Virus record (IMG/VR): IMGVR_UViG_3300020814_000207
Span: 1 to 64,000 of that record
Strand: one strand, 5' to 3'
DNA length: 64,000 nucleotides
Source: an uncultured virus (IMG/VR IMGVR_UViG_3300020814_000207)
Taxonomy: Duplodnaviria > Heunggongvirae > Uroviricota > Caudoviricetes
Position numbers and translations under genes: made by a program. Of the stretch, positions 40,865 through 55,485 are shown one piece after another. The notes under the pieces are model-generated. The model was not told the DNA's origin and did not search any database. It saw nothing but the letters and a program-made list of their open reading frames with translations. The first letter of the stretch is position 1; every line of letters starts with the position of its first letter.

Positions 40865-41531
40865 TTTTTATCTTGTCAATCGTAGCTTGGTCTACTATTT
40901 TTTCCGTGGCTACTATTGTGTGTAGTGGTTCTGGGATATGGTAAATAAGCCCTTTTATGCCGACCCTACTCATCCATTCGTAGTCGTCGTGAATACTAAG
41001 CTCTTCATTAAACGGCACAATGCATTGTCGTCTAATAACGCAGTTGATGTTTGGATAAACCCCATCCTTCATCATGAGTATATTAAATGGATCATCATAA
41101 TGTCTAATGGACATATCGTTGTCGTATAATACTGAGAAATCAGATACAACGCAACTGGCCATTTCATGTTTATTCAGAACTTCTATAGATAGGGATACCT
41201 TGTCGCTCCTGAATACAACACCACCATTCGCGATTACGATATAGTCGTAGTCCTCTCCGAATAGCTGAAGCCCGCCATTGAATAGTGACGACCTATTAGC
41301 TGAATCCCTTTTGACACAAACACACGGTTTATCACATATGGTTCCGGATACTATTGCCCCGACGAACCTGGGCTTATTCAGTACCATGTTCACTATTTGA
41401 TTCCAGCCACTATCATTATCGCCGCTGTATAATACGACCAATTTGTCGACCTGTTTCGCGATAGACATTATTCCGTCTAGCAATAGACGACTATGTTTTG
41501 TGATTGCGATTACAGCCCCGACCTTAGACAT
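40827..41531 (-). CDS. GT2-like glycosyltransferase (DxD motif degenerate)
   Basis: SLFNGGL...YDYIVIANGG, FNEELSIHDDYEWM and YHIPEPL motifs of the GT-A fold. Confidence 0.6.
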   Translation of the reverse strand: MSKVGAVIAITKHSRLLLDGIMSIAKQVDKLVVLYSGDNDSGWNQIVNMVLNKPRFVGAIVSGTICDKPCVCVKRDSANRSSLFNGGLQLFGEDYDYIVIANGGVVFRSDKVSLSIEVLNKHEMASCVVSDFSVLYDNDMSIRHYDDPFNILMMKDGVYPNINCVIRRQCIVPFNEELSIHDDYEWMSRVGIKGLIYHIPEPLHTIVATEKIVDQATIDKIKNVIVSKYGLSNG

Positions 41532-41532
41532 A

Positions 41533-42276
41533 TTACGTCCTATCTACCGTGTTAATCGGGCCGATCAATTGTCTGATAAAGCCGATGCCACTATCTGATT
41601 CAAGTTCACGGACAACAGAATTAAAAGATCTTTCCTCTCCGCACATCATCTCTCTATAAAACGATGTTATGTATACGCCACGTATCGATGCCTGTGAAAA
41701 GATCAGGGTATTGCCCTGTATTTTTCCAAAGTCCCAGCGAACGAATCTTGAGTTCTGATTAGTTTCTGCGACAACGCTCTTGTGTGTTTCAATGTCGATA
41801 TACTCGTTGGCGTCTATCACCACAAAGTAGTTCTGTGTTATGCTGGGCATTGCCAGTCTAACCAACTGATCGTTAGCAACTATTGGTTCTGTGGGAATAA
41901 CGACATTATACTTACAAGAGTTGGCTACGCAATGTCGTGACAATTCTACCAACTCTTTGGGATCGGATGTCGCAGACATATCAACGACCACGATATTGGT
42001 ATATTTAACGCTCTTGCGAAATACTCTGCGCAGATCGTCCAGGCTATGTACCTTGTTATCGAAACATACAACCAATGAGTAGTCAAAACTCATTGCCTGT
42101 TTCATGTGGCGAACTGCGGTTGTTATATCTGGAAACTTGGTTCTTGTAAAGAACCTACAGCAACCTGGGGCGTATGTTACATTATCATCTGATGTACAGC
42201 AATATAGATTCAGCAGGCACCCGCCACCCTCTTTTGATAAAAAGCTACACGACTGACATGGCGTACAAAGCTTCAT
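41533..42276 (-). CDS. Divergent GT-A-like protein with Cys-rich N-terminus
   Basis: YSLVVCF, NIVVVDMS and YFVVIDANE motifs, plus an N-terminal CxxCxxC...C...CC cluster. Confidence 0.4.
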   Translation of the reverse strand: MKLCTPCQSCSFLSKEGGGCLLNLYCCTSDDNVTYAPGCCRFFTRTKFPDITTAVRHMKQAMSFDYSLVVCFDNKVHSLDDLRRVFRKSVKYTNIVVVDMSATSDPKELVELSRHCVANSCKYNVVIPTEPIVANDQLVRLAMPSITQNYFVVIDANEYIDIETHKSVVAETNQNSRFVRWDFGKIQGNTLIFSQASIRGVYITSFYREMMCGEERSFNSVVRELESDSGIGFIRQLIGPINTVDRT

Positions 42277-42755
42277 GGTTTAATAGCCTCTACATAAAAC
42301 ATTGTGTTTTCATATCTGGCAATCACTACCTTTAGTCCTAGTGATTCTAGTTGTCGACATATGTCTTTCATGTCGGTTGCTGATTTTCCAAAGTTAACAA
42401 TTTGATCTTGCGAACCAAATACATTAGCCGAAAACGTTGTCAGATCCATGTTGCGACTACTGAATAACTTGCATAGTATGTTTATGTCTGGCGACAGGAT
42501 CTTTATACATCCATTATTGCAAAGCTTATTGGCCCAGTTTGATAGTACTTGATCCATAACCTTGTATGGAATATATTGTAGCACATTTAGAACCAGCATT
42601 TCCTCAACAGAACTATTGGTACATAGCCAATCAAGGTTCGAAACGTCTCCCTGTCGATATAGACCTAGCGGTAGTTGTTGTTGTGCCACATCTATGTTGG
42701 TGAAACCGGTACGAATATCGCTCCCACATCCAAGATTCAATCGCATGTTTTCCAC
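42273..42755 (-). CDS. Class I SAM-dependent methyltransferase-like protein
   Basis: RLNLGCG SAM-binding motif, NID, VLQYI and W..KL.NNG.IKI..PD. Confidence 0.75.
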   Translation of the reverse strand: MENMRLNLGCGSDIRTGFTNIDVAQQQLPLGLYRQGDVSNLDWLCTNSSVEEMLVLNVLQYIPYKVMDQVLSNWANKLCNNGCIKILSPDINILCKLFSSRNMDLTTFSANVFGSQDQIVNFGKSATDMKDICRQLESLGLKVVIARYENTMFYVEAIKP

Positions 42756-43558
42756 TCCCCCCAGCCATTGGGGTTTCTAATCAACTGATCAGGGTCTTTC
42801 TCTTTATATATCCTACACGCCTTGCCAGACGGGAAAGGTGCCGGTGGATGAAACAAATGGGTAGCGTATACAGGATACCCCTGGGGCATATGTATAATTG
42901 GTCTGCCACTCGCTTTGATTCTGTCAAATATGTCAGAATCCTCCATGCCCCATTCGTCAAAGTCTTCGTCGAAACCTCGCATTTCTTGTAGTAGTTTAGT
43001 TGGGGCAATCCAACCATAGCCATTCATTCCCTCATACGATCTCATTCGGAATATTCTAGCTATCGTTGGCAAATCGACCATTGGGTTATCTATGATAGCC
43101 CTAGTGGCCTCTGGACTAGCGGTTACTGATACGCCACCAACTATGCCATTATAGTATACCTGATTAGCTGCAAATAATTCGCCAACAGTACCTATTGGTA
43201 ATTGATTGGCATACGATAGATAATCCCCGTCGTGAAAAATTTCAGCGTCACGGAATATTACGCGCTTTGATCTAAGTCTTTTGAGGACATAATTTCGCGC
43301 GTATCCTCCGTTCAGATAATTAGTTTGCAATGATTTTGACAGTGTGAAATACGAGCAGTTAAGATGTTGTAGGTCTGATAAATCCTCGTGGCAACAATTG
43401 TTCATAACAACGACACGCCAGTTTTCTTTTGGCAACGCCGTTGTCGTAATCAGCCTCTTTAATCCAGGAATAAGCTGGATTTTTCTGCCAACACTAGGCA
43501 GTACGATAACGATATCTCTTTCTGTAACAGACCAGTCAAAGTCGTTTTCTGTTATCAC
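42737..43558 (-). CDS. GT2 glycosyltransferase with GT7/galactosyltransferase-like C-terminal motif
   Basis: GYARNY, IFRDAE and GFDEDFDEWGMEDSD...HLFH motifs. Confidence 0.8.
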   Translation of the reverse strand: MITENDFDWSVTERDIVIVLPSVGRKIQLIPGLKRLITTTALPKENWRVVVMNNCCHEDLSDLQHLNCSYFTLSKSLQTNYLNGGYARNYVLKRLRSKRVIFRDAEIFHDGDYLSYANQLPIGTVGELFAANQVYYNGIVGGVSVTASPEATRAIIDNPMVDLPTIARIFRMRSYEGMNGYGWIAPTKLLQEMRGFDEDFDEWGMEDSDIFDRIKASGRPIIHMPQGYPVYATHLFHPPAPFPSGKACRIYKEKDPDQLIRNPNGWGEWKTCD

Positions 43559-44400
43559 AGTATGACCTCGTGTCCAGAACCCAACTCACCCCATTGCCTT
43601 CCTAGATTTGCAATTGGAGATCTTTGGTTTTGGTTTATCTGTCGTAACAACAAATTGTAATGCCCCTGGCTTTCACGTAATGCCGACCAGTACTCGTTAG
43701 TCAAATAGGTCGGATGCCATTGGTGCATAACATACCACTCTTTATTACCCACGATATTCGCTGGTATATTATTCTTCTGTACTGTGTAAATAAAGAAGTC
43801 GTCTTCGTATGCCAGCCTGACGAACGATTCCTCTATCCCGCCTATATCATAGAACAATTGTCGCGGCAACGCTCCACAGAAATATAGCAATCGGGGATTT
43901 GTAGGCCCAATATATTCCTGTCTTGCCGGATGATCTAATTCACGTATTTTGTTGTAGTCTAACAATCCGGCGTTACACGCATCTATCACCACATCATCAT
44001 TCGGTTTAAGCGATACGCACCTGACAGACACATACTGGTTTGCGCGTGATTCGAATATCGCTCTAAGATTATCTAATACGCACCCTACGTGCATACATTC
44101 TGGATTCTGAATTACTAGAATATCGCCACTTGCAAATTTAGCCCCAATATTCCATGGTAATGCAGGTCCACGACACGGGGTTGTGCGCCCGGTGATAAAC
44201 AGCCTTATATCGCATCGCATTCTTTCTTTGTAAAGACGACATATTTCCGTTAGTTCTGCATCTCTTGTAGTATCGCTGACATCATCGTTAATGACGATAA
44301 TTTCGTAACATGGCTTATTGGTTTGTCTATGAATAGACTCCAGTGTTCTACAAAGCAATTGGGGTCGCCGAAAATACGACATTACTATACTGAATTTCAT
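43555..44400 (-). CDS. GT2 glycosyltransferase
   Basis: SIVMSYFRR, EIIVINDD, WNIGAKFASGD, GGIEESF..AYEDD and HQWH motifs. Confidence 0.85.
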   Translation of the reverse strand: MKFSIVMSYFRRPQLLCRTLESIHRQTNKPCYEIIVINDDVSDTTRDAELTEICRLYKERMRCDIRLFITGRTTPCRGPALPWNIGAKFASGDILVIQNPECMHVGCVLDNLRAIFESRANQYVSVRCVSLKPNDDVVIDACNAGLLDYNKIRELDHPARQEYIGPTNPRLLYFCGALPRQLFYDIGGIEESFVRLAYEDDFFIYTVQKNNIPANIVGNKEWYVMHQWHPTYLTNEYWSALRESQGHYNLLLRQINQNQRSPIANLGRQWGELGSGHEVIL

Positions 44401-45368
44401 GATAATGCTCGAAACAGATTGTTCCAGTCTTCGATAAATCTTGATTCACCGAAACGTTGCAGTACAGTTTGTCGTCCAGCCTCTCCTATGGTTCGAGCTA
44501 GCCCCTTATCTCTTAGTAACAACTCAAGCTTGGACCGCAATTCTTCCGGGGTATAGCCAAGCATTCCGTTAATGCCATCTTGGATAATAGTTGGGATAGC
44601 GCATGTCGGTGTTGATACTACGGGACACCCAACGGCCATAGCCTCTATCATAGCCATCGGGTATGTTGACTGCAACGACGTATTCAAAAACACTCCCGCT
44701 GTTCTGTATCTATTTACCAAATCGTCTGTGCTCGTTGCTTCCTGAGACAAACCAGGATTATTGCCAACAAGATTTGTCTGTAATCCGTTCGTCACATGTT
44801 TCCATAGAGAAAATCCCAATAAACTATCTCGTTCTCTAAACTGATTGACCACTGATAAAACGCCGCCTATAGCGCCGTTCCATCCGCAAAATACGTTTGT
44901 GTCAATTCCGTGTTCTATAGCAACGCCCGCATTATCTCCCCACTGATCAGCAGACCATTTACATATGTACACATTTACAGTGCCCTTCATACCCTTCATT
45001 TGTTTAATCTGCTGTTCGTTTACCCCCTGTATGGGAACGGTATGCTCTAGTTGAATCAATGGACATCCCAGTGCCTGAGCAATTTGCCCCAGAATCTGAA
45101 ACTGCCCCCACTTGCTTTGAGATAGCACCACATCAAAAACAACATCGTGCGGTAGGGCGTTATGATTTATGGGTTGATAGTTGGCCGGATATGGCCTAGA
45201 CCTACAGTTCCATTGTTTTAGATTCGGATGTTGTAAAGAATAGAACCTATGGCCGGTTTTACATATCATTGTTTCATATGCTTCGTGAGTTGGAGAACAC
45301 AGGATGTTTAGGGGTCTATCAAGATCCCTATTAACACACCTTAGTATTCTAGATATCTGTGTGGGCAT
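44397..45368 (-). CDS. GT4 (GT-B) glycosyltransferase
   Basis: IEHGID, FLNTS...PMAMIEAMAVGCPVV, IQDGING and IGEAGRQTV motifs. Confidence 0.88.
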   Translation of the reverse strand: MPTQISRILRCVNRDLDRPLNILCSPTHEAYETMICKTGHRFYSLQHPNLKQWNCRSRPYPANYQPINHNALPHDVVFDVVLSQSKWGQFQILGQIAQALGCPLIQLEHTVPIQGVNEQQIKQMKGMKGTVNVYICKWSADQWGDNAGVAIEHGIDTNVFCGWNGAIGGVLSVVNQFRERDSLLGFSLWKHVTNGLQTNLVGNNPGLSQEATSTDDLVNRYRTAGVFLNTSLQSTYPMAMIEAMAVGCPVVSTPTCAIPTIIQDGINGMLGYTPEELRSKLELLLRDKGLARTIGEAGRQTVLQRFGESRFIEDWNNLFRALS

Positions 45369-45370
45369 TT

Positions 45371-46564
45371 CTACTCCTGTGTCAGTGCCAACTTTATTCT
45401 ATCGCCAACACTAGCATGATCAAATGCCCTTGCTCGCATAGATGCACTGATTCTTTTTTGGGCAAATACATCTGGTTGGCATTGATGAATGTCGTATGCA
45501 CGACGGAGAATATTAGATAGGTGGCACAGATTTGGCTCGAACCATTCTTCTTTGCCTGTGTACAGGTCGTTAAATCCACCGTCCGGAGCAAAACATGGGG
45601 ATAGTTGTCCTTTGATTAGGTAGCCGCCAGGAACATCTCCTGGATATTCAAATGACATACTGTCCGGATCGAAGAATTTCTTGGCGTTATCAAAATCCAT
45701 TAGCAACTCTGGGAAACTACCCCAATTAGATGCTATAACAGGATTGCCATAACCAAGCGCATCCATGGCTGGAATACACCACGCCTCTCCGTGAGACGGA
45801 GACACAAAAAACGTACCGGATTTGTGAAGTTGTCCTATGTGTTCATCAGACATTCGTCGCGTAATAACTATGATTGGTGGATAATCCCTTGGGTTTTGAT
45901 AGATATGTGTTGACATTTTGATATCGTCAACTATTTGCGAGATCTGTTGTTGTGCTGCGTTATCCTTTATTCCAGGGAAGGATGTTTTTATTACCAGAAC
46001 CACATTGTCGTCTGGCGTAAAGGCATGAAAATATGATCGAATGACTCCGACGATATTTTTGCGTCTGGTATATTCGCCTATCGTATAGAATACGGTTTGG
46101 TTCGATTTGCCAGGAAGTGCTATTGGATTTGTTGTGCTACTGTACTTGTTCGCATTACATGGGATAGGAATAACTCGCACAGGCTTTGTTACTCCGCTAT
46201 TGATAATAGCCTGCTTTGCAACAATAGATGATGTCCATATCTCATCCATCAGATTGCAATGCTCTGCCCATGTTGAATTTCTAAAATGCGTTGTTTCCCA
46301 GCTAAATACCCCTATGTTTTTAACGCCGCTCTTATACTCGAATGTGTGTGGAAGCGAATGCTGTATGACTACATCAACGTTGTTTAGCGGTTTGCATTCT
46401 AGGTGTTGAATTCGTTTGGCATCATCAATACCGTTCATCGGGGACATAGATATTGGTCTGCATACGACATCGATTCCGGCCCTTTCGCACGCCAAGATAG
46501 TTTCTATCGCAGCATGACTATAACCGGTACCATCCTTATAGACAGATATATACAGTACACGCAT
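45371..46564 (-). CDS. GT4 (GT-B) glycosyltransferase
   Basis: GTGYSHAA, WET, RKNI..VI.SY..AF and SHGEAWCIPAMDA motifs. Confidence 0.85.
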   Translation of the reverse strand: MRVLYISVYKDGTGYSHAAIETILACERAGIDVVCRPISMSPMNGIDDAKRIQHLECKPLNNVDVVIQHSLPHTFEYKSGVKNIGVFSWETTHFRNSTWAEHCNLMDEIWTSSIVAKQAIINSGVTKPVRVIPIPCNANKYSSTTNPIALPGKSNQTVFYTIGEYTRRKNIVGVIRSYFHAFTPDDNVVLVIKTSFPGIKDNAAQQQISQIVDDIKMSTHIYQNPRDYPPIIVITRRMSDEHIGQLHKSGTFFVSPSHGEAWCIPAMDALGYGNPVIASNWGSFPELLMDFDNAKKFFDPDSMSFEYPGDVPGGYLIKGQLSPCFAPDGGFNDLYTGKEEWFEPNLCHLSNILRRAYDIHQCQPDVFAQKRISASMRARAFDHASVGDRIKLALTQE

Positions 46565-47256
46565 TACAACACCGTGAACCCAATTTCGCTATTGTTTCGA
46601 GCAACCAAGCTATCCGCCCTCATTTTTTCGGCACCGTTATATTCGTTAACAATCTGTATAGCCATGTTCGCTATGGTATTTCGATCACACGGAACCCTTT
46701 GGTTTCCCTCTATCTTAAATCCACAATTCAACCACCTGATCCATTCATTTGCCATGAACGATGTGGCAAGATCCGGCCTACGCATAATGCTAGTTATAGC
46801 CCACCTCACAAACTCGGTATTGCTCATCACCCTATTCGGTGCTTTTAGGTCTGGAACCCGGTAGTTCGGTTCCTTTCTATCCCATGTCTTAGACCTATCT
46901 AACACCCCTATGGAATCAATAACATTCATCCATATTGCCGCTGTTCTATCGTATCCAAATCGCGGTAGTTTTTCTGTTTGACCAAATACGTCCGCTGGTT
47001 CAACCATATACTCATGTGTTCGTCTTGCCAGTTCTGTCCTTTGCTCTGGCCTCATCTTTATAATGCGGGTTAATTGTTCGCCAAAATGTTTATTGCTAGG
47101 TAGCGCTCTGCGCTGTTCTGTTTCTATTACTGCTTCGTAGAAAAACCTTTCAACATTAATTGGAATACCACCCGGCATTTTTGCATGATCTTCCATAGCA
47201 GAATAATTTACAACCATTGCGGGACACGATGTCGCCATAGCCTCGGTGATCGGCAT
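46564..47256 (-). CDS. C-terminal part of the intein-containing GT4 glycosyltransferase (in frame with 47269-49956 across a TGA)
   Basis: Preceded in frame by TGG GGT (W-G). MPITEAMATSCPAMVVNYSAM is the second half of the GT4 EGxGxPxxEA motif. Confidence 0.75.
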   Translation of the reverse strand: MPITEAMATSCPAMVVNYSAMEDHAKMPGGIPINVERFFYEAVIETEQRRALPSNKHFGEQLTRIIKMRPEQRTELARRTHEYMVEPADVFGQTEKLPRFGYDRTAAIWMNVIDSIGVLDRSKTWDRKEPNYRVPDLKAPNRVMSNTEFVRWAITSIMRRPDLATSFMANEWIRWLNCGFKIEGNQRVPCDRNTIANMAIQIVNEYNGAEKMRADSLVARNNSEIGFTVL

Positions 47257-47268
47257 ACCCCAGCCTAG

Positions 47269-49956
47269 TCAACCCTCACAGTTGTGTGTTACGAAATGGT
47301 TCGCAACGAAACTGCGAGAGTTGGCATCACCCCCTTTCGGTGAAACGACTGCAAGGTCGTAAACTGGACCAGTGTAGTTGCTTTGCTTAACCGACTTGAC
47401 TTTAATTAGCAGATAATTCTTATGCTTCTTTCTGTGTTTACTATTTCTTTTTGGATTACACACCCCAATTGCATCAAAGATTTTTGCATTGTTGATTGGA
47501 CAAACCACCCATTTATCCTGAAGATCTTTCGCTTCCAAAAATACTAGCTCATTGTTTTCATTCATTGTCAAAACACGATGGTCGTGTGTGACTATAACCG
47601 GCTTATCATTCTCGTATGTTTTGATCTCAACAGTAGATGACGTATCATTAGTCTGTTTACACCAGTTGACTTTGACAACATCGCCATTCCCGTTTACGAT
47701 TTGGTCTCCGGACTTAATATCTGCTATTCGTTTGTGTGTGTAATCACTAAGTAATATTGGCGTATCTGGATGTAGACAGATGGAATATTGTACATACACA
47801 TCAAAGATATTGTATATGCTGGCAAGAACATCTCTACCAACAGAATGATTTGCATTTGGCGGATGTGCCGCTAGTTTACCGCATCTTCGACAGTGCGCCC
47901 ATTCTCCGGAGAAGAACGATGGATATGCAGTTCCACAAGCAGAGCATAGGTACGTCATCAATACCTTGTTGCCAACTTTGAACTTTTGTATTGCGTCACC
48001 GATATCATACCCTACATCCGGATAGCTGGTGTGTAGATACAGATACGTTTTCTTCGCAATATCTAGATGGGAACTTTTCTTTGACGAGCGTAGCCATTCA
48101 GCAAACGCTTCTATCAAGTCTACATACAGCTTGCGTTTTTGATTTCGCATCACCGTACCAATAATGAACGACGAAGGGTCTATCCCGTGTTTGGCTTTAT
48201 GCGCCCCTTTATCTGGAACGGGCTTGAATAGATCTAGTTCAGCACCAGGGGATGCCACGGCGGTTACTCTTATGTCATATTCCTTTTCAAGCAGATCTTT
48301 GCCCCATTGGGAATATGTCATTATCGCATCGCACTGCTTGTATGTGTCTACCCATAGCTTGCGTTGGGGTGCGCCGTCTATAGTCGGCATCCAAATGACC
48401 TTGAAGTTACTCCTAAGAGGGGATCTTAGTACGAACTCATCCATCCAAAAATCGCGAATTTGGCAATTATGGACAGCGAACCCCGTTACATAACTATTAT
48501 CTTCTTCGACTTCAAGATTATATACCTGTCCACGATACTGTGTTTTTCTAATTCTCCGCACGGGAAGTAATAAATAATTCTCATCAATCCAGCCTTTCCC
48601 CGCCTTATCTAAGTGTTTCGGATCATCGAGTATTCTTGTCGGCAATTCCTCGTGCTTTTGCACAATTCTATGCATATTGCGGGCGTGTCCACCATACGCA
48701 TCAATATCATACGACGGCCCAGTTCCAGGAACCAGCTTACTTCCTTTGTTTTTTCTGAATTTTATTGATGTTCTTACCCCTATCCGTAGGGATAATTGTC
48801 TGATTTGATGTGCCATGATTTTTGACACTGTAGTGGCTGATACAGTATCGTACTTGTATGTTCCGTCACCACGAATAAATCCAGTCAAAAATCCTTTAAC
48901 AATATCGCAATTATTGTTTTGATAGATACAATCAGGAACAACTTTATTGTGAGCGCCGCGGCCACATATCGATTCCATGAATTTGGACAATAATATAGAA
49001 CAAAATCGTACCGTTCTATTTCCACGATCCCTATTTGCTGTTGCAACACCAGTTAATCCGAACAACTCTTTTCCCAAAGATAATACGTCGTCCACAAATT
49101 TATTTTCATAGAAACCAAAACATAGTTCTATACTGCCTCGGTTAACACTTCCCTCAGCACAATAATATCCTAAGAATCTTGCTAAATCTTGCGTAATATC
49201 CAGTTGGCTTGGTAATGAAAAATCGGTACAATCCCTATGTCCAACAGGGTATAGTCTATTGTCTAGTTCAACAAATTGCGATAGGTGATTCTTCAGATTG
49301 ATGTTGTCTATTTTATGTCCACTATATATTGGAATAACAACATAATCATTTACCCCAACTTTAGATGCTGGTATAAACTCTGCATCTTTAGCAAAATGCC
49401 TTTGTCGAACATCTCGCTCTTTCCATGTACGCTTTTTACTCCTTATCACTAAAACAGGATGTTCGTTGGTGAGTCTATATGTTCTGTTGTCACCAAAAAT
49501 ATAGATATTAGAGATATCCCCAACGTGTTGCCTTCGCATGGTTTTGGTGACTCGCCTGGGAACCCCTTTGTGGCTAATAACATAATCACCAACTTTAATG
49601 TTTTCTATAGGCACAGGACCACGCGGCGTTTCAATATTTGTTCCTGGAGGAACGCAAACACAATCCGGTTTCCAATCTAACAGCACATCGCTAAATCTCC
49701 ATTCGCCAAACTGATTTGTTTGTCTCGAATGGTACGCCTGATTGGCTACTTGGTCATTGGGGTCTGGTGCGTTGGGGTAGAACTTCCATGGAACACATTG
49801 ATTTCTTGGATCTGAATCGCTAGCATACGACCCAAATTCCGCTACCTCGAACCTACCGGTTGCGTTAATGCGTTTAATAACTTCATTCCAGTATGTAGAA
49901 AAACCAGTAGCTAGATAGCTAGCTTCACCAACAAACAATAATCGTTTTTTACTCAT
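47269..49956 (-). CDS. GT4 glycosyltransferase, N-terminal and main part, with two inteins
   Basis: Extein motifs LATGFSTY, WMPTIDG, GTVMRNQKRKL, YLYLHT and IYNIFDVYVQYSI-CEG. Contains a CxxC...CxxC insert. Confidence 0.8.
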   Translation of the reverse strand: MSKKRLLFVGEASYLATGFSTYWNEVIKRINATGRFEVAEFGSYASDSDPRNQCVPWKFYPNAPDPNDQVANQAYHSRQTNQFGEWRFSDVLLDWKPDCVCVPPGTNIETPRGPVPIENIKVGDYVISHKGVPRRVTKTMRRQHVGDISNIYIFGDNRTYRLTNEHPVLVIRSKKRTWKERDVRQRHFAKDAEFIPASKVGVNDYVVIPIYSGHKIDNINLKNHLSQFVELDNRLYPVGHRDCTDFSLPSQLDITQDLARFLGYYCAEGSVNRGSIELCFGFYENKFVDDVLSLGKELFGLTGVATANRDRGNRTVRFCSILLSKFMESICGRGAHNKVVPDCIYQNNNCDIVKGFLTGFIRGDGTYKYDTVSATTVSKIMAHQIRQLSLRIGVRTSIKFRKNKGSKLVPGTGPSYDIDAYGGHARNMHRIVQKHEELPTRILDDPKHLDKAGKGWIDENYLLLPVRRIRKTQYRGQVYNLEVEEDNSYVTGFAVHNCQIRDFWMDEFVLRSPLRSNFKVIWMPTIDGAPQRKLWVDTYKQCDAIMTYSQWGKDLLEKEYDIRVTAVASPGAELDLFKPVPDKGAHKAKHGIDPSSFIIGTVMRNQKRKLYVDLIEAFAEWLRSSKKSSHLDIAKKTYLYLHTSYPDVGYDIGDAIQKFKVGNKVLMTYLCSACGTAYPSFFSGEWAHCRRCGKLAAHPPNANHSVGRDVLASIYNIFDVYVQYSICLHPDTPILLSDYTHKRIADIKSGDQIVNGNGDVVKVNWCKQTNDTSSTVEIKTYENDKPVIVTHDHRVLTMNENNELVFLEAKDLQDKWVVCPINNAKIFDAIGVCNPKRNSKHRKKHKNYLLIKVKSVKQSNYTGPVYDLAVVSPKGGDANSRSFVANHFVTHNCEG
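47281..47778 (-). mobile_element. Mini-intein (166 aa, no endonuclease)
   Basis: Begins CLHPDTPILL, has block B VTHDHRVL, and ends VYDLAV...SFVAN.FVTHN followed by Cys+1. Confidence 0.9.
48466..49656 (-). mobile_element. Intein with LAGLIDADG homing endonuclease (397 aa)
   Basis: Begins CVPPGTNIETPRG, has block B LTNEHPVL, LAGLIDADG helices FLGYYCAEG and FLTGFIRGDG, and ends VYNLEVEEDNSYV...VHN followed by Cys+1. Confidence 0.92.
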
Positions 49957-50457: not shown

Positions 50458-52197
50458 TTATATCAACTTTTTCATGTCAGAGACAATAAAAGAACCATCT
50501 CTTTTTGTCCCCGTTACTAACACGATTAAATCCTCAGTACACAAATCTTTGTTTTTCTGATATGCGTCAGGGAATACAACGGCATGGTCGAGCGAATAAG
50601 TAGAGTCCGATAATGTTACGAAGCACATCGGGGAACCTGGATTCTTCCCCTTTTTCGTTTTTGTATGCTTAACCATATCTATGATTGCGCAAACCTTACA
50701 TTCTTCCCCGCTCAATGCCCTGGCAACATCCACACATGTATGGGTAGCCTGATCGCTACCAACGCCGTCTACAGGAGAGCAGGACAACGCGATACCAAGA
50801 AAGTACTTTTCAGCTTCGGCTTTGATTCTTGGCGTATCTTCGAAAACCATATCGAGTTGTTTGATCTTATCAAGTATTGCAGATCTCCTAGATGGAGAAA
50901 TTCGCATCTGTTCGCCTGGGTCATACCCAAGTTCCTTCAACATACAATTGAGTTCCGCTCGTTTCATTTTGCATATATCGTCTCGCTTAGCACCTTCGCT
51001 AAGCTCAAGTATAGTTTCAATAACCTGTTTTTTTGTCAACCTAGAAACAGGCACTATGTTCTGTATGTTCATCATTCCTTGTAACGTACTCACCGTGCTA
51101 CCAAATTTGTGGAAATTGGTAAAGAACCAATCCTTTTCTCGATCCGTTAATCCTTTGACATCTACTCTCTCCCCTTGTTCGTCCCGCACACTGGTGCCTA
51201 GTATTACTTGTAATTCAGCTATCATGCGAGATCTTGACAATCCATAGCAATCGCATGCACCGGATTTGATAAGGGCTTCCCCGACGTTTCTATGAAGTCC
51301 AGGTACCGCATCTAGGAACTTTGGCCATGTAGTTATCTGGCCAGCCTCAAGTATCCTATTGATTGCACCATCGCCAACACCACGAACATTAGCCAGACCA
51401 TACGCAATCCTACCATCAACTAGTCTAAACTCAGGATTTCCAAGCCTAATGTCTGGTGGAATAGTTTCTATCCCGAATAATCTGGCATCCTGTACTAGCT
51501 TGTATATCTCTTCTTTTTCATCACCCTTAAACTTGGCATACGTTAAATAGGACGCGTAGAACTCATGAGGGAGGTGAGCCTTGATCCACGCTGTCTGGTA
51601 GCCTAATGTGGCATAACTTATTGAGTGCGATAGATTAAATAAATATCTTTGCCCCTTTTCAATCCATCCGAATATTTCTTCTGCCACGGCCTTTGTGACA
51701 AGCCCCTTTTTAACCGCACCTTCTACGAATTCCGTCCTGGCTTTTGCCATTAAAACACTGTCTTTCTTCCCCAGGCTTTTTCTAAGCGAGTCGGCTTGTA
51801 TCAAAGAAAATCCAGCAATTTCAACGGCAATTTTCAAACTCTGTTCCTGGTATAGTAGGGCTGAGTATGTGGGTTCAAGAATCGGTTTTAAGACTGGGTG
51901 TAAATACTCTACTGGTTTTCTGCCGAATTTAACATCAACATAGTCCTGGCTCATATTCGATTCAAGAGGACCGGGGCGCAGAATCGAGATTAAATCCGAC
52001 AATTCACGAATACTCCTCGGTCTAACTTTTCTGGCCCAGTCTTGTCCAAGCTTTGTCTCTAACTGGAAAATGCCGGTTGTGTATCCACTACTGATTAGAT
52101 CCCACACGACCGGACAATCCAGCGGGATATTGCGTATGTCAAATCTACCTCGATCAATTGAACATTCACATCTATCAAACTTAATAGGTTCGGACAT
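50458..52197 (-). CDS. dnaE: DNA polymerase III alpha, C-terminal half (fingers, HhH, OB)
   Basis: IPLD...TTGIFQLE, ILRPGPL, LLYQEQ, YLFNLSHS.SY, GLANVRGVG and LIKSGACD motifs, plus an OB fold with MCFVTLSD. Confidence 0.9.
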   Translation of the reverse strand: MSEPIKFDRCECSIDRGRFDIRNIPLDCPVVWDLISSGYTTGIFQLETKLGQDWARKVRPRSIRELSDLISILRPGPLESNMSQDYVDVKFGRKPVEYLHPVLKPILEPTYSALLYQEQSLKIAVEIAGFSLIQADSLRKSLGKKDSVLMAKARTEFVEGAVKKGLVTKAVAEEIFGWIEKGQRYLFNLSHSISYATLGYQTAWIKAHLPHEFYASYLTYAKFKGDEKEEIYKLVQDARLFGIETIPPDIRLGNPEFRLVDGRIAYGLANVRGVGDGAINRILEAGQITTWPKFLDAVPGLHRNVGEALIKSGACDCYGLSRSRMIAELQVILGTSVRDEQGERVDVKGLTDREKDWFFTNFHKFGSTVSTLQGMMNIQNIVPVSRLTKKQVIETILELSEGAKRDDICKMKRAELNCMLKELGYDPGEQMRISPSRRSAILDKIKQLDMVFEDTPRIKAEAEKYFLGIALSCSPVDGVGSDQATHTCVDVARALSGEECKVCAIIDMVKHTKTKKGKNPGSPMCFVTLSDSTYSLDHAVVFPDAYQKNKDLCTEDLIVLVTGTKRDGSFIVSDMKKLI

Positions 52198-52762
52198 AGT
52201 TCAATATCTCCACTAGATCATTCCTAAAAACCTGTTCGTACTTACGACCGTGCTGCATGATGTAGCTAGGATGATAAATGGCCCTGGTCTTAATCCCTGT
52301 CTTCCAATGATCGTGCCATCTGTTCATTATAGACTGTAACGATTGGCTAGACGGAATACGTAGTATCGCTTGTGCCGCCACTTTGCCAACGCAAACAATT
52401 ACTTTCGGCTGGATGATGTCTAGCTGAGCATGTAGCCATTGCTGACACATCTCTATTTCGTCTGGCTTTGGTGTTCTATTCTTGGGTGGCCTACATCTTA
52501 TTGCGTTGGTTATGAAACACTGGGTGGTATCGAATCCAATATCTGACAGACACTTCCTAAAGTACTTTCCACACCTACCGGTAAACGGTATACCACAACT
52601 ATCCTCTTGTTCTCCGGGGGCCTCACCAATAAACATGATAGATGCTTCTGCGTTTCCATACCCACAAACAGGATTAGTTCTTTTGCGATGCAATTCGCAT
52701 TTTCTACATCCAACGATCTGTTCACAAAGACTTAGCAATAATTGCGTTTTAGTTAGGCTCAA
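52181..52762 (-). CDS. udg: Uracil-DNA glycosylase, family 4
   Basis: CRKCELH, GEAPG.QED..G.PF.G..G, RCRPP.NR.P and YHPSY motifs. TTG start at 52762 is preceded by GGAGGT. Confidence 0.9.
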   Translation of the reverse strand: MSLTKTQLLLSLCEQIVGCRKCELHRKRTNPVCGYGNAEASIMFIGEAPGEQEDSCGIPFTGRCGKYFRKCLSDIGFDTTQCFITNAIRCRPPKNRTPKPDEIEMCQQWLHAQLDIIQPKVIVCVGKVAAQAILRIPSSQSLQSIMNRWHDHWKTGIKTRAIYHPSYIMQHGRKYEQVFRNDLVEILNYVRTY

Positions 52763-53192
52763 GGACAAGTACCTCCATATCCAGATCATTGAGAGAACTA
52801 TGTATCATCGGCCATACCTCATTCCAGTCAAGGCCACCGCAACCACAACCAAGTGGCGGGATAACAATTGTCCTGATATCCATGTTTACCAGAAACTTGT
52901 ATAGCTCATTCAAGCCCTGTCTGACCCATGCATATCTTGAAGGGTTGCGCCAATGGTCTTTTGTCGCAATGTTAAAAACCCACTTCTTATCCGGAGACCT
53001 CCAAATCATTAGTTCTCCTGGTCTAAGCATGTTGTTGCGGCAGTATCTCTTGTATTGCGTCATTAATGCCGGGTATCTGAGTTTGAAGGCCAGGGCAACG
53101 CCCTTTCCCATTATACCAACACAGTTCACTGTGTTGACATAAGCATCAGCATCGACATCAAAGATATAATCAGCCTTAATCAATTTGACCAT
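52749..53192 (-). CDS. Macrodomain ADP-ribosyl glycohydrolase (DarG/TARG1-like)
   Basis: VNTVNCVGIMGKGVALAFK, TKDHWRNPS and IPPLGCGCGGLDW motifs. Confidence 0.88.
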   Translation of the reverse strand: MVKLIKADYIFDVDADAYVNTVNCVGIMGKGVALAFKLRYPALMTQYKRYCRNNMLRPGELMIWRSPDKKWVFNIATKDHWRNPSRYAWVRQGLNELYKFLVNMDIRTIVIPPLGCGCGGLDWNEVWPMIHSSLNDLDMEVLVLEPN

Positions 53193-55485
53193 CTACGGCT
53201 TCTCCGAAACTATCTATTTGTTGCACTTTCCCATTAACAAGGTTCATTGCATGCCAGATCTTATCTAGTGCCGTTACCCCAAGGAAATCGAACTTCACAC
53301 ACCCCATGGCTTCTGCCGCACCCATTTCTAGACCACATATTTGCGTCTTGCTTTTGGGATCATACATCATGGGAACAAGTTCTCTAATTGGTCGATCAGC
53401 TATAACGATTCCTGCCGCATGCTTACTTTGTGATTTCTTAGTGCCTTCAATTCGCATGGCCTGATCAAATAGCGGTTTGTACCACTTATATGCTTCTCTT
53501 ACTGGGTCGATATTATCAACTGCCCACTGGAGAATCCCATATGTATCATCTCCAGTTTCCTCTCTCATTTCTTGAAGTTCGTCCGCAATGGCCGCTTCGT
53601 CTGGGATATGACTGGTGATTTCGTTACACAGATCATGAGGTTTGATAATACACTTGTTCGGATCTTCGCCAAGTTTTGTGGCACGCACCTGCATTAGATG
53701 CTTGACCGTGTTTGGTTGTGCTCTGAAAACCTCTTTTAGAGCAGCCTTCCCCTGCAACCTGCCAAATGTGACAATTTGAGATACCTTTTCGCTACCCCAC
53801 TTTTCATTTAGATACTCGATAACCCGAGACCTGAATACAACGCCGATATCTGTGTCGATATCTGGCAAACTGATATGGGCATCTACTGTAGATACTGGGT
53901 GGCTTTCAATGTCGTCGGTTATACCAGCAGCATATGCTATCTGAGAATTGCTACCATTTGCACAATCTTTGTCCTCTAATCGACTTGCTATGTAACACCA
54001 CATCTTTGGGCTATTATCGTCTATCCACTTGGCCTCGCTCTTAATCATGGCCATATCGTATGAACGACGTTTTTTCTGCACGACAGAAGAGACTTGTTTT
54101 CGTGCTTGCGATATTTCGTCGCAAGTAACGATGTGGTCTAGGTCGGATAGCCATGCCATGAAATCTTTGGCCCCAACATTAAAGTGTGGTGGTATGTTAC
54201 GGCTATTGTTGTAGAATCTTTCAAAGTAAAGGCCATAAGTTATTGGGTCTATATCGGTGACGCCGATCAGGTAGTTAACTAGAGACCCCGCACCAGATCC
54301 ACGCCCCTTTCCCCTGGGGCCATCGTTTTGATCGACAAACTTACATACATCTGCGACAATCAGGAAGTAGTCCGCGAGTTTAGCTTCCTTGATTGTGTCT
54401 AATTCTACGTTAAGCCTATTCCAGTATTCCCGTTTTTTGTCGGTATCCAGATTACACAATTTTCGTTTAGCGCCATCTATGCACATGTCTCGAAGTAGTT
54501 CGTCAGATGTTTTATCTTGGGTTGTTGTGAATTTTGGTAGACATGGAGCACGACCAAGCTTTGGAGTATCACATCTATCTGCTATTTCTAACGATGTCTC
54601 GATTTCTTGCGGACTATAGTGTTGTGTCATTTCGTCGTATGAGAATATATAGAATTGATCAGAGCAGAAAAATTCCATAGTATCGCCACCCATGGCCTTG
54701 ATATTAGCTTGCTCTTCCTGGGTTGTGTGCATTTGCGCATAAAGCAATATGCGCTGATCGTCTGCGTCCTCTTTACACGCATAGTGACTATCTAATGTTG
54801 CCACCAACGGTATTCCAAGATTTTTACCAACATCTCGCAAACAATCTACGACAACTCGTTGTACGGCCATGCCCTCTTCTTGTAGTTCTATGTAATAGTT
54901 ATCTCTGCCGAACACATCAACATACTTATCCACAACCTCATTTGCAACATCCCTCCAGTTGTCTTTTAACAACAATCGCACCCTGTCTGTATCGTTTGTG
55001 ACATTGCTTATTTTACAAGCCTCTTTATGGTCGTTAAACAAGCAATGCGACAATTCTCCAACCAAACATCCGGATAAACAGATTAGGTTTCTATCACTAG
55101 TGAATCGTTTTAGAAACTCAAGATTAATCCTTGGCCTTCTGTAGAACCAATCGACCCTATTCATTTCACTGACAAGAGATATTAGTGTTTCTACTCCAGC
55201 TTGATTTTTCGCCAATACAGTAAGGTGAAAGTGCTGCCTATTAGTTTCGTCGCGTATTGATGGATCATGTCTGCATAGATACAACTCTATTCCAATTATA
55301 GATTTTACCCCACTTTTTTTGCCAGCCCTTTGGAAATCTACCATGCCGCATATGTTTCCGTGATCGGTCATTGCTATAGCAGGACAACCCAAATCTTTTG
55401 CCCTAGCAATTATTTTCTTAGGAGATGGTAATCCATCTAGCAATGAAAAGTGTGTGTGGTTATGGAGCGGGACGTATATTCCCAT
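53176..55485 (-). CDS. dnaE: DNA polymerase III alpha, N-terminal half (PHP and catalytic palm)
   Basis: LHNHTHFSLLDG, TDHG, DSHY, GRGSGAGSLV, FERF, LPDIDTD, KHAAGIVI and KFDFLG motifs. Confidence 0.92.
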   Translation of the reverse strand: MGIYVPLHNHTHFSLLDGLPSPKKIIARAKDLGCPAIAMTDHGNICGMVDFQRAGKKSGVKSIIGIELYLCRHDPSIRDETNRQHFHLTVLAKNQAGVETLISLVSEMNRVDWFYRRPRINLEFLKRFTSDRNLICLSGCLVGELSHCLFNDHKEACKISNVTNDTDRVRLLLKDNWRDVANEVVDKYVDVFGRDNYYIELQEEGMAVQRVVVDCLRDVGKNLGIPLVATLDSHYACKEDADDQRILLYAQMHTTQEEQANIKAMGGDTMEFFCSDQFYIFSYDEMTQHYSPQEIETSLEIADRCDTPKLGRAPCLPKFTTTQDKTSDELLRDMCIDGAKRKLCNLDTDKKREYWNRLNVELDTIKEAKLADYFLIVADVCKFVDQNDGPRGKGRGSGAGSLVNYLIGVTDIDPITYGLYFERFYNNSRNIPPHFNVGAKDFMAWLSDLDHIVTCDEISQARKQVSSVVQKKRRSYDMAMIKSEAKWIDDNSPKMWCYIASRLEDKDCANGSNSQIAYAAGITDDIESHPVSTVDAHISLPDIDTDIGVVFRSRVIEYLNEKWGSEKVSQIVTFGRLQGKAALKEVFRAQPNTVKHLMQVRATKLGEDPNKCIIKPHDLCNEITSHIPDEAAIADELQEMREETGDDTYGILQWAVDNIDPVREAYKWYKPLFDQAMRIEGTKKSQSKHAAGIVIADRPIRELVPMMYDPKSKTQICGLEMGAAEAMGCVKFDFLGVTALDKIWHAMNLVNGKVQQIDSFGEAVDGQID

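What the first reader, a model, noticed from the sequence alone, without database searches (positions are those of the whole stretch)
47254..47280. 9-nt in-frame interruption with a stop inside the GT4 motif: candidate programmed stop-hop
Seen: on the minus strand, right after the second intein, the sequence reads TGT GAG GGT TGA CTA GGC TGG GGT ATG CCG ATC ACC GAG GCT (C-E-G-stop-L-G-W-G-M-P-I-T-E-A). The 230 codons after it continue the same glycosyltransferase in the same frame without further lesions. Established: the GT4 donor-binding motif is E-G-(F/W)-G-x-P-x-x-E-A, GGU and GGC are read by one tRNA-Gly, and T4 gene 60 bypassing uses matched Gly take-off and landing codons with a stop just after take-off. 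Inference: take-off at GGU, landing on GGC and resumption at UGG gives exactly CEGWGMPITEA, an intact motif, and could act as a translational switch on the lead enzyme of the cluster. Alternatives: UGA readthrough (adds 3 residues), a true two-chain enzyme restarting at ATG 47256, the footprint of a lost mobile element, recent pseudogenisation, or assembly error.
Basis: partly seen in the sequence, partly recalled or inferred. Interest (0 to 1): 0.78.

Follow-up and report, generated by a model that had tools for sequence, protein, structure and literature searches.

The report
Intein-linked stop-hop candidate in phage glycosyltransferase
A phage sugar-transferase gene carries a conserved 9-base insert with a stop codon inside its catalytic motif, preceded by a strongly conserved ribosome-binding-like sequence and RNA hairpin, which most likely make the ribosome hop over the stop.

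Summary
On the minus strand the gene reads TGT GAG GGT TGA CTA GGC TGG GGT ATG. That is 9 extra bases with a stop, 8 nt after a mini-intein, inside the E-x7-E motif of a GT-B/GT4-like glycosyltransferase.

- **Not an error or a pseudogene.** A contig from a second sample carries it. A 91%-identical phage keeps it with TAA instead of TGA. The 234 downstream codons have dN/dS 0.06.
- **New signals.** The 81 nt ending at the resume codon are the most conserved stretch of the gene. They hold an 11-nt Shine-Dalgarno-like sequence and a 22-bp hairpin. The hairpin's 3' arm contains the take-off GGT and the first two bases of the stop. None of 2000 synonymous recodings folds as well.
- **Wider spread.** Eight more diverged lineages, known only as proteins, break at or 2 codons after the same spot. 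All carry the same intein clade. 21 lineages with other inteins at this site read through.

Best reading (about 0.5): a programmed 9-nt stop-hop from GGU to GGC. Main rival (about 0.3): a two-chain enzyme that restarts at ATG 47256. No experiment or RNA data exist, so the mechanism is inferred.

The parts
47269..49956 (-). Upstream ORF of 895 codons: N-part of the glycosyltransferase with two inteins, ending ...HN|C-E-G and stop TGA (47271..47269)
48466..49656 (-). Intein 1 (397 aa, LAGLIDADG type). It is absent from the 91%-identical relative L003.
   Evidence: Pfam hits; L003 translation; boundaries computed
47281..47778 (-). Intein 2 (166-aa mini-intein, CLHPDT...FVTHN). It is inserted between I and C of YVQYSI|CEG and belongs to the intein clade that always carries the stop.
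47326..47337 (-). Shine-Dalgarno-like AAAGGGGGTGAT, 2 nt 5' of the hairpin. It encodes K-G-G-D of an intein-clade-specific insertion.
   Evidence: The pattern AAGGRGGTGAT has its only match in the 64 kb here, against 0.06 expected. The sequence is identical in L003.
47270..47323 (-). 54-nt hairpin. The 5' arm is 47323..47310, the upper 8-bp stem and CCAU loop are 47307..47288, and the 3' arm is 47283..47270. The 3' arm covers AAC TGT GAG GGT TG: the last intein codon, Cys+1, Glu, the take-off Gly and the first 2 nt of the stop.
47272..47274 (-). GGT, proposed take-off codon (Gly of C-E-G)
47269..47271 (-). In-frame stop: TGA here, TAA in L003 and L007. It is followed by C in both.
47263..47268 (-). 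CTA (skipped) and GGC (proposed landing codon). GGC is the first GGN triplet in any frame after the take-off codon.
47254..47262 (-). TGG (resume, Trp), GGT (Gly; GGG in L003, a synonymous change) and ATG 47256 (the native Met of the motif, and the restart codon in the rival model)
46564..47256 (-). Downstream ORF of 230 codons: C-part of the glycosyltransferase, under purifying selection
47260..47340 (-). Most conserved 81 nt of the whole gene between the two lineages (2 differences)

Best explanation
The 9 nt form a programmed short translational bypass, an in-frame 'stop-hop'.

**Proposed mechanism.**
- The ribosome reaches GGU (Gly of C-E-G) in the P site with UGA (UAA in the relative) in the A site.
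- Peptidyl-tRNA-Gly leaves GGU, the mRNA slides 9 nt, and the same tRNA re-pairs with GGC.
- Decoding resumes at UGG. The product is C-E-G followed directly by W-G-M-P-I-T-E-A, an intact E-x7-E motif. After the two inteins splice out, this is a full-length GT-B glycosyltransferase.
- Two conserved RNA elements encoded at the 3' end of intein 2 are proposed to drive this.
- The first element is a 22-bp hairpin whose upper stem can re-form just outside the mRNA exit. Its lower stem, by zipping up, would pull the take-off codon 5' and sequester it.
- The second element is an 11-nt SD-like sequence just 5' of the hairpin. With the hairpin closed, its core lies about 10 nt from GGC, where this phage's real start codons sit relative to their SD.
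- A second SD-like GAGGG overlaps the take-off codon.

**Shown here.** The sequence anatomy, its conservation, selection on the downstream part, and the recurrence of a stop at or next to this spot within one intein clade.

**Inferred.** tRNA retention, sliding, the role of the hairpin and the SD-like sequence, and the efficiency of the hop.
For: **1. Matched codons and restored motif.** GGT and GGC flank stop plus CTA. Skipping them restores the motif seen in 107 of 107 intact homologs with fixed E-x7-[ED] spacing. W/F/Y/L is kept in 102 and the next G in 96 of 107.

**2. The insert persists in a diverged lineage.** L003 (91% aa identity, no intein 1) has GGT TAA CTA GGC. The stop type changed but a stop was kept.

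**3. The downstream part is under selection.** Over 234 codons pS is 0.54, pN is 0.055 and dN/dS is 0.06.

**4. The tract is the most conserved part of the gene.** 47340..47260 has 2 differences in 81 nt. The rest of intein 2 has 121 in 438. The binomial P is 2e-9 at the intein rate. Only 3 of 2121 sliding windows have 2 or fewer differences, and all three lie here.

**5. The hairpin is selected at the nucleotide level.**
- The 63-nt MFE is -29.0 kcal/mol here and -26.3 in L003.
- 2000 synonymous recodings average -10.8 (sd 2.7, best -25.5), and 0 of 2000 reach the native value.
- The 121-nt fold has z -4.7 here and -3.7 in L003.
- The two nucleotide differences fall in an interior loop and in the terminal pair.

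**6. Controls lack the hairpin.** Five read-through genes with other inteins at the same site (L026-L030) give -7.4 to -13.6 kcal/mol for the equivalent 63 nt. L026 reads CAC AAC TGT GAG GGT TGG GGT ATG, which is the window sequence minus the 9 nt.

**7. SD-like sequence.** The 11-mer is unique in the 64 kb, against 0.06 expected. The phage uses SD: 35 of 53 genes have AGGA, GGAG or GAGG upstream, mostly starting at -16 to -8. ATG 47256 has GAGG at -21 and GGGG at -5, so no SD at normal spacing.

**8. The stop goes with one intein group (A and its sister A').**
- 7 of 7 lineages of intein clade A end ...HNCEG.
- 2 of the sister clade A' end ...CEGWG. A third ends ...CEGW on a short contig.
- 21 of 21 lineages with other inteins at this site read through.
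- The pentapeptide 12 aa before the terminal His permits 13 of 13 pairs (8 lineages) or 12 of 13 pairs (2 lineages) with the N-C-E-G-U arm in all 10 stop-bearing lineages. 0 of the 21 others permit 13 of 13 anywhere in the last 150 aa.

**9. Precedent in print.**
- The gene 60 5' stem-loop is described as a 'motor', with an SD-like sequence 6 nt 5' of the landing site (PMC5009743, passages).
- For phage Hau3's 10-nt inserts a 5' stem loop plus a flanking SD were proposed (PMC10732093, passages).
Against: - No protein, RNA or ribosome data exist. No RNA run holds the stretch.
- Only two lineages are available as DNA, and they share the insert by descent. The hairpin shows no compensatory change.
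- In the sister intein clade A' (P0023, P0136) the N-piece ends ...CEGWG and the C-piece on a contig of the same length starts MP... A clean two-chain split explains this without any hop. Whether a landing Gly codon exists there is unknown.
- ATG 47256 lies only 12 nt after the stop, so termination and restart is physically easy. The hairpin and the SD-like sequence could serve restart as well.
- The matched Gly codons could partly be a by-product of how the 9 nt were inserted (GG or GGYTG microhomology).
- Hops without stimulators run at about 1% in E. coli (my recall).
- The back-translation test shows permitted pairing, not observed pairing.
- The helix right after the break has diverged fast between the two lineages (6 of 13 residues).
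Confidence: 0.5

Rival explanations
1. The enzyme is made as two chains by termination and restart. Translation ends at the stop, giving the N-part with its inteins and a C-E-G tail. The same or a new ribosome then starts at ATG 47256, the native Met of the motif, and makes the 230-aa C-part. The two chains assemble non-covalently. The SD-like sequence and the hairpin would act as a split ribosome-binding site, or as a tether that keeps the terminating ribosome near the restart codon.
For: - ATG lies 12 nt after the stop.
- 4 diverged C-pieces (P0003, P0007, P0011, P0013) also start at that Met, as does L003's P0002.
- In clade A' the N-piece ends ...CEGWG and the presumed partner starts MP..., so no residue would be lost.
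- The same phage has its DnaE in two separate genes, so split enzymes are tolerated.
- Phage 'genes in pieces' are known: T4 39/60 and a split ribonucleotide reductase (10.1101/2022.08.31.505936, passages).
Against: - In the window lineage a split would drop W and G, which are conserved in 102 and 96 of 107 homologs. It would also cut the beta-loop-alpha of the E-x7-E donor site.
- There is no SD at normal spacing before the ATG. With the hairpin closed the SD-like core lies about 19 nt from ATG and about 10 nt from GGC.
- The 12 nt between stop and ATG show only one change between the lineages, and it is synonymous in the Gly codon. Nearby synonymous sites differ at 0.5-0.9.
- The matched in-frame Gly codons have no role in this model.
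- P0012 is the presumed partner of P0016, judged only by equal contig length. It is called from a Met 13 residues further on. If true, that chain would lack the second acidic residue of the motif.
Confidence: 0.3
2. The stop is read through by a near-cognate or suppressor tRNA, or TGA is reassigned. This would add three residues (X-L-G) inside the motif.
For: UGA followed by C is a weak stop context in E. coli (my recall). The reading frame stays the same downstream.
Against: - The relative has TAA at the same place.
- TGA ends 11 and TAA 36 of the 53 ORFs I took as genes.
- The complete relatives carry only tRNA-Lys, -Leu, -Met and -Glu, and the window has no tRNA.
- The E-x7-[ED] spacing is invariant in 107 of 107 homologs, so a 3-residue insertion is unlikely to be tolerated.
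Confidence: 0.03
3. The insert is a neutral or harmful scar that hitch-hikes with the homing intein, and the gene is no longer a working glycosyltransferase. The conserved RNA tract serves the intein or some unrelated RNA function.
For: The stop is strictly linked to one intein group (A and A'). Co-conversion of flanks during homing would carry 9 nt that lie only 8 nt from the intein.
Against: - Downstream dN/dS is 0.06.
- C-pieces stay open and conserved at 45-63% identity.
- In the window lineage the homing endonuclease domain is gone, yet the tract is still the most conserved part of the gene.
Confidence: 0.07
4. The insert is an assembly or sequencing artefact.
For: None found.
Against: The identical sequence occurs in G000, in G001/L002 and in a contig of run X2. 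The TAA form occurs in L003 and L007. The 895-aa product is on record from 3 contigs.
Confidence: 0.01

Closest known systems
Phage T4 gene 60 translational bypass (50-nt gap)
   Same: Matched Gly take-off and landing codons. [quoted passage not shown] A 5' stem-loop thought to pull the mRNA forward as it re-forms, and a stem that includes the take-off codon. An SD-like element near the landing site. The cassette is tied to a mobile element in a phage enzyme gene (MobA there, an intein here). Sources: PMC5009743, passages; 10.1101/2022.08.31.505936, passages; 10.1101/2024.12.09.627546, abstract.
   Different: The gap is 9 nt, not 50, and it is in frame. The codons are GGU and GGC (presumably the tRNA-Gly that reads GGY) rather than GGA and GGA. 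A single hairpin lies entirely 5' of the gap. Most of the RNA signal is encoded inside an intein. No nascent-peptide signal is known. The host gene is different. Homology to the gene 60 cassette was not tested and is not expected.
Streptomyces phage Hau3 terminase: bypass of 10-nt inserts
   Same: A short gap in an essential-type phage gene, with the insert absent from relatives. The proposed stimulators are a 5' stem loop plus a flanking SD placed 5' of the short gap. Source: PMC10732093, passages.
   Different: There the A-site codon is the rare UUA, not a stop, and the insert shifts the frame. No intein is involved. A junction peptide was found by mass spectrometry in E. coli for a UAA variant. 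Nothing has been tested here.
Synthetic 'stop-hops' in E. coli (matched codons flanking a stop, 9 nt read as one amino acid)
   Same: The same logic: peptidyl-tRNA re-pairs to a matching codon beyond a stop, in frame.
   Different: Here 12 nt would give one Gly (a 9-nt move, with one extra codon skipped). The site is natural, conserved, and has dedicated flanking signals. The 2016 review says of natural in-frame stop hopping that 'no occurrences are known' (PMC5009743, passage).
Genes in pieces created by mobile elements (T4 gene 39/60 split; split ribonucleotide reductase of Aeromonas phage)
   Same: A phage enzyme interrupted next to a mobile element, with both halves kept under selection. 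This is the model for the rival explanation. Source: 10.1101/2022.08.31.505936, passages.
   Different: Those splits contain a homing endonuclease gene between the halves and add new tails that hold the halves together. Here only 12 nt separate stop and ATG, and no tails are added.
prfB (RF2) +1 frameshift site
   Same: An SD-like sequence very close 5' of the P-site codon, a UGA followed by C in the A site, and slow termination that gives the shift time. The 3-nt SD spacing for +1 shifts is stated in PMC5009743. The rest is my recall.
   Different: That is a 1-nt shift onto an overlapping codon, not a 9-nt move, and it has no hairpin.

Membership tests
Programmed translational bypassing (hop) | Take-off and landing codons that one tRNA can read | tested here: met
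   GGT at 47274..47272 and GGC at 47265..47263 in both lineages. That one tRNA-Gly (anticodon GCC) reads GGU and GGC is textbook knowledge, not a call.
Programmed translational bypassing (hop) | A stop or slow-to-decode codon in the A site next to the take-off codon | tested here: met
   TGA in the window and in L002. TAA in L003 and L007.
Programmed translational bypassing (hop) | Skipping the gap restores the conserved protein sequence and the downstream frame | tested here: met
   Alignment with intact relatives and the census of 107 homologs. L026 equals the window sequence minus the 9 nt.
Programmed translational bypassing (hop) | Conserved stimulatory mRNA signals (stem-loop, SD-like sequence) | tested here: inconclusive
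   A predicted hairpin and an SD-like 11-mer are present, unusual and conserved. Their function was not tested, and no compensatory changes are seen.
Programmed translational bypassing (hop) | One polypeptide made across the gap | not testable with these tools
   This needs a reporter assay or mass spectrometry.
GT-B / GT4-like retaining glycosyltransferase | Glycos_transf_1 domain with the E-x7-E motif | tested here: met
   Intact relatives hit PF00534 at 38.8 and 41.6 bits (cut-off 26.4) across the interrupted stretch. The window's own pieces give no GT hit, because the intein and the insert break that stretch. Motif census.
GT-B / GT4-like retaining glycosyltransferase | Two-Rossmann GT-B fold | tested here: met
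   The AF2 model of intact relative P0025 has pLDDT 93.3. Foldseek top hits are the chlorovirus GT 3oy2 (E 1e-17), MshA, GlgM, BshA and PimB'. This was shown for the relative, not for the window protein.
Intein (Hint domain protein-splicing element) | Cys1 ... His-Asn followed by a Cys+1 nucleophile, and Hint domain profiles | tested here: met
   Pfam Intein_splicing 1e-20, Hint_2 and LAGLIDADG_3. The boundaries CLHPDT...THN|C and CVPPGT...VHN|C are read. Intein-free relatives join exactly at these points. Splicing itself was not tested.
Stop-codon reassignment (TGA read as an amino acid) | In-frame TGA spread over many genes, TGA not used as a stop, a matching tRNA | tested here: not met
   TGA ends 11 of the 53 ORFs I took as genes. 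There is only one internal stop in the window. No such tRNA is present. The relative has TAA.
Split gene with termination and restart | A start codon close to the stop, with a ribosome-binding site at working distance | tested here: inconclusive
   ATG lies 12 nt after the stop. GAGG sits at -21 and GGGG at -5, unlike most genes of this phage. The SD-like 11-mer is about 16-19 nt away even with the hairpin closed.

The most novel reading that the evidence does not exclude
One intein clade carries its own recoding cassette. A clade-specific insertion in the intein's C-terminal block encodes an SD-like sequence and the 5' arm of a hairpin. That arm pairs with the host gene's conserved N-C-E-G codons. 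Together with a stop-containing 9-nt insert just 3' of the intein, these elements make ribosomes hop from GGU to GGC. This would be the first natural in-frame stop-hop. It would also be the second bypass cassette known to travel with a mobile element, after T4 gene 60/MobA, and it is spread over at least ten phage lineages.
Probability: 0.4. Interest if true: 0.93.

Novelty: new variant of a known kind. Interest (0 to 1): 0.82.

Why it matters
**Rarity.** Natural programmed bypassing is known from very few systems: T4 gene 60 and its relatives, yeast mitochondrial inserts, and probably phage Hau3. The 2016 review states that no natural in-frame stop-hop is known (PMC5009743, passage).

**A compact test system.** The whole candidate is about 80 nt with clear, mutable parts: SD-like sequence, hairpin, take-off codon, stop and landing codon. 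A simple reporter would test the idea that re-pairing of mRNA behind the ribosome drives forward sliding.

**Mobile elements.** The link to one intein clade suggests that such elements can bring RNA-level recoding signals with them.

**Annotation.** Gene callers report this enzyme as two unrelated 'hypothetical proteins' in all ten stop-bearing lineages seen here. Similar cases are probably being missed.

**If the rival is right.** A Rossmann-fold enzyme cut through its catalytic loop and restarted 12 nt later under a conserved hairpin would still be an unusual case of translational coupling.

Tried and rejected
**Searches for more DNA of stop-bearing lineages**
- IMG/VR pattern for the insert and for F-V-x-H-N-C-E-G-stop: only the same two contigs.
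- H-N-C-E-G-W-G-stop in IMG/VR: 0.
- Metagenome scan: only L007, identical to L003.
- Genome contigs: no relative by protein and two chance matches by pattern.
- GenBank phages by tblastn: 37 records, all matching intein 1 only, with no relative of the glycosyltransferase.
- As a result the eight further stop-bearing lineages are known only as called proteins. Pairing of N- and C-pieces rests on equal contig lengths only.

**RNA evidence**
- No RNA holder was listed, so expression and RNA-level removal of the 9 nt could not be examined.
- Run X3 does not cover the site.

**Other checks that gave nothing**
- Rfam: 0 matches at E up to 1 in 46900-47800.
- Promoter-like and terminator-like sites around the gene are at chance level, and none lies at the site.
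- Earlier findings of this scan: nothing.

**Ideas considered and dropped**
- TGA recoding or selenocysteine: dropped because of the TAA variant.
- A phage suppressor tRNA: none found.
- A simple tandem duplication as the origin of the 9 nt: only 4 of 9 bases match the preceding 9 nt, by my reading.
- A -1 slip at G GGU: that frame closes after about 35 codons, by my reading.
- A small downstream hairpin around the landing codon: predicted in L003 only, not conserved.
- No complex prediction was run. Halves of a split gene tend to pass by likeness, so it would not separate the two main models.

Full report
**1. What is there**

The window is part of a 75.9-kb viral record. A 143-kb record with terminal repeats (G001) holds the identical gene. 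The genome looks like a tailed-phage genome read with the standard code. I took 53 large, tightly packed ORFs from the list as genes. Of these, 36 end in TAA, 11 in TGA and 6 in TAG.

On the minus strand, an 895-codon ORF (47269..49956) is followed in the same frame by a 230-codon ORF (46564..47256).

The upstream ORF holds two inteins:
- Intein 1 is a 397-aa LAGLIDADG intein at 48466..49656.
- Intein 2 is a 166-aa mini-intein at 47281..47778. It ends ...FVTHN directly before the Cys codon at 47280.

**2. What the gene is**

The two pieces give no glycosyltransferase hit in Pfam. Their uninterrupted relatives do.
- L010, L011 and L012 are single ORFs of 551-567 aa.
- L010 and L012 hit Glycos_transf_1 at 38.8 and 41.6 bits (cut-off 26.4), precisely over the stretch that is interrupted in the window.
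- An AlphaFold model of the intact relative P0025 (pLDDT 93.3) is a GT-B fold. Its closest solved structures are a chlorovirus glycosyltransferase, MshA, GlgM, BshA and PimB'.
- In the model the break lies in the loop between a beta strand (323-328) and a helix (335-342). This is the E331...E339 donor-site motif.

In 107 intact-length family members the motif reads E (106), G (106), F/W/Y/L (102), G (96), M (93), P (95), x, x, E/D (107). The 9 nt therefore sit inside a nearly invariant motif. Reading them through would change a spacing that never varies in those 107.

The gene lies at the head of a row of four further glycosyltransferase-like genes and next to the replication genes.

**3. It is neither an error nor decay**

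- A 151-nt contig from another sample of the same study spans 47165-47315 without a difference.
- The 895-aa product is on record from 3 contigs.
- A second lineage carries the insert as GGT TAA CTA GGC. This is L003, with an identical copy L007 from another assembly. It is 91% identical in protein and lacks intein 1. A stop was kept while its type changed. That excludes UGA-specific decoding.
- Against that lineage the 234 codons after the stop have pS 0.54, pN 0.055 and dN/dS 0.06. This is like the upstream extein parts, at 0.02-0.04.
- No tRNA lies in the window. The complete relatives carry only tRNA-Lys, -Leu, -Met and -Glu.

**4. New: a conserved RNA tract ends at the stop**

The 81 nt from 47340 to 47260 differ at 2 positions between the two lineages. 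The rest of intein 2 differs at 121 of 438 (binomial P 2e-9). No other 81-nt window of the 2202 aligned bases has 2 or fewer differences.

*Hairpin (47323..47270).*
- It has a 14-bp lower stem (13 bp in L003), an 8-bp upper stem and a CCAU loop.
- The 3' arm is AAC UGU GAG GGU UG. That is the last intein codon, Cys+1, Glu, the proposed take-off Gly and the first two bases of the stop.
- The 63-nt segment folds at -29.0 kcal/mol, and at -26.3 in L003.
- 2000 synonymous recodings with the phage's own codon usage average -10.8 (sd 2.7, best -25.5). None reaches the native value.
- The two differences between the lineages fall in an interior loop and in the terminal pair. Nothing breaks the stem, but nothing covaries either.

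*SD-like sequence.*
- Two bases 5' of the hairpin lies AAAGGGGGTGAT. The pattern AAGGRGGTGAT has its only match in the 64 kb here, against 0.06 expected.
- This phage uses Shine-Dalgarno sites. 35 of 53 genes have AGGA, GGAG or GAGG upstream, mostly starting 8-16 nt before the start codon.
- With the hairpin closed, the G-run of the SD-like sequence lies about 10 nt from GGC and about 19 nt from ATG 47256 (my count).
- ATG 47256 itself has only GAGG at -21 and GGGG at -5.

Rfam has no family here.

**5. New: the stop goes with one intein clade**

The protein collection holds about 1900 family members. Most are intact proteins of 545-575 aa.

*Stop-bearing lineages.*
- Five diverged N-pieces end exactly at ...HNCEG. 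They are P0016-P0020, 54-58% identical, from contigs of 4.7-61 kb. Each has a full LAGLIDADG intein at the same site, and its C-terminal part resembles intein 2.
- With the window and L003 that makes 7 of 7 for this clade (A).
- A sister clade (A') ends two codons later at ...CEGWG. It comprises P0023 and P0136, the latter on a 105-kb contig. P0022 ends ...CEGW on a 2.2-kb contig and may be cut.
- Four diverged C-pieces of 230-232 aa start at the motif's Met: P0003, P0007, P0011 and P0013.

*Read-through lineages.* 21 proteins with other inteins at the very same site read straight through ...HNCEG[FWAYQ]GMP....

*Pairing potential without DNA.* I asked whether the peptides could encode the hairpin.
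- In all 10 stop-bearing lineages the pentapeptide 12 residues before the terminal His allows pairing with the N-C-E-G-U arm. The pentapeptides are NSRSF, NPHSF, KPHSF, KLHSF, NSHSY and SSHSY. 8 lineages allow 13 of 13 pairs and 2 allow 12 of 13.
- None of the 21 others allows 13 of 13 anywhere in the last 150 residues.
- The variable residues (S/P/L, R/H) are those whose codons can keep pairing through G-U wobble.
- This shows permitted pairing, not observed pairing.

*Controls with real DNA.* Five read-through loci (L026-L030) fold at only -7.4 to -13.6 kcal/mol over the equivalent 63 nt. L026 reads CAC AAC TGT GAG GGT TGG GGT ATG, the window sequence without the 9 nt.

*Where the signals sit.* K-G-G-D (the SD-like sequence) and the 5' arm lie in a short insertion that only these intein clades have. 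This is my reading of the protein tails.

*Independence from homing.* In the window lineage the endonuclease domain has been lost, yet the tract is the best conserved part of the gene. Its present role is therefore not homing.

**6. How it most likely works**

Shown:
- matched GGU and GGC around a stop;
- restoration of an invariant motif when the gap is skipped;
- selection on the downstream part;
- a selected hairpin and an SD-like sequence ending at the stop;
- recurrence within one intein clade.

Inferred:
- With GGU in the P site and the stop, followed by C, in the A site, the upper stem has already re-formed outside the mRNA exit.
- After the tRNA lets go, zipping of the lower stem pulls the mRNA 5'. 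This hides the take-off codon.
- The anti-SD pairs with the SD-like sequence. GGC is the first GGN triplet in any frame after take-off, and it comes to lie in the P site.
- Decoding resumes at UGG.

This is the logic proposed for the 5' stem-loop 'motor' and the SD-like landing aid of T4 gene 60 (PMC5009743, passages; 10.1101/2024.12.09.627546, abstract). It also matches the 5' stem loop plus flanking SD proposed for the 10-nt inserts of phage Hau3 (PMC10732093, passages). I put this reading at about 0.5.

**7. The main rival**

The rival is termination at the stop and restart at ATG 47256, giving a two-chain enzyme (about 0.3).

*For it.*
- The ATG is only 12 nt away.
- Clade A' would split without losing a residue.
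- The phage already has DnaE in two genes.

*Against it.*
- W and G are lost in clade A.
- The cut goes through the catalytic loop.
- No SD lies at working distance from the ATG.
- The in-frame preservation of GGC TGG GGN has no role in this model. It shows one change between the lineages, which is synonymous.

The matched Gly codons count for less than they seem. An insertion with GG or GGYTG microhomology would create them as a by-product.

Readthrough, a dead gene hitch-hiking with the intein, and artefact together get about 0.1. The remainder is left for mechanisms not considered.

**8. Comparison and novelty**

This is not a member of the gene 60 cassette family. The gene, the gap length and the codons all differ, and homology was not tested. 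It would work like that cassette and like Hau3.

- The review of 2016 says of natural in-frame stop hopping that 'no occurrences are known'.
- My four literature searches found no report of an intein-linked bypass, or of inteins in this glycosyltransferase family.
- I read only passages and abstracts of the papers named. I opened no supplements.

I therefore file it as a new variant of a known kind, unproven. It is computationally well supported as a selected feature, and the mechanism remains open between a hop and a restart.

Noticed in passing
window 50461-55485 (-): The DNA polymerase III alpha subunit is encoded as two separate genes. One holds the PHP and NTPase domains (53179-55485) and the other holds the finger, HhH and OB domains (50461-52197). 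A uracil-DNA glycosylase gene (52184-52789) and a macro-domain gene (52752-53192) lie between them.
   Followed up: no
window 48466-49656 (-); L003:2492-3985: Intein 1 (LAGLIDADG) is present in the window and in G001 but absent from the 91%-identical relative L003, where the extein reads ...KPDTLLLLRDFW... Inteins at this first site recur in other family members (P0044, P0137, P0156, P0157, P0160).
   Followed up: partly
window 47779-48465 (-); P0025 residues 268-305: The family carries a four-Cys zinc-ribbon insertion (CxxC...CxxC, invariant in 40 of 40 aligned members). It also has a C-terminal extension of about 190 aa beyond the usual GT4 core. One member is named 'ribosomal protein L40E' by its source, probably because of the ribbon.
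   Followed up: no
window 47231-47266: Run X2 holds a 1241-nt contig at depth 142 from another organism. It matches these 36 nt with 4 differences and continues differently on both sides. It appears to be the same motif region of an unrelated, abundant glycosyltransferase gene.
   Followed up: no
window 42740-46564 (-): Four further glycosyltransferase-like genes follow the focal gene: two of the Glycos_transf_1 type, one GT2 and one Glyco_transf_7C-like. Several overlap by ATGA or GTGA junctions. The seven ORFs after them (38476-42755) have no Pfam hit.
   Followed up: no
window 6724-31765 (+): Three very large ORFs of 2556, 1965 and 1375 aa lie on the plus strand. I did not examine them.
   Followed up: no
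window 47218-47253 (-): The helix right after the break has diverged quickly between the two stop-bearing lineages (MPITEAMATSCPA against MPIIESMSCAVPA, 6 of 13 residues). Both have lost the Gly of the ACG-x-P motif, which is nearly invariant in the family. Other stop-bearing lineages (P0003, P0007, P0011, P0013) keep it.
   Followed up: partly
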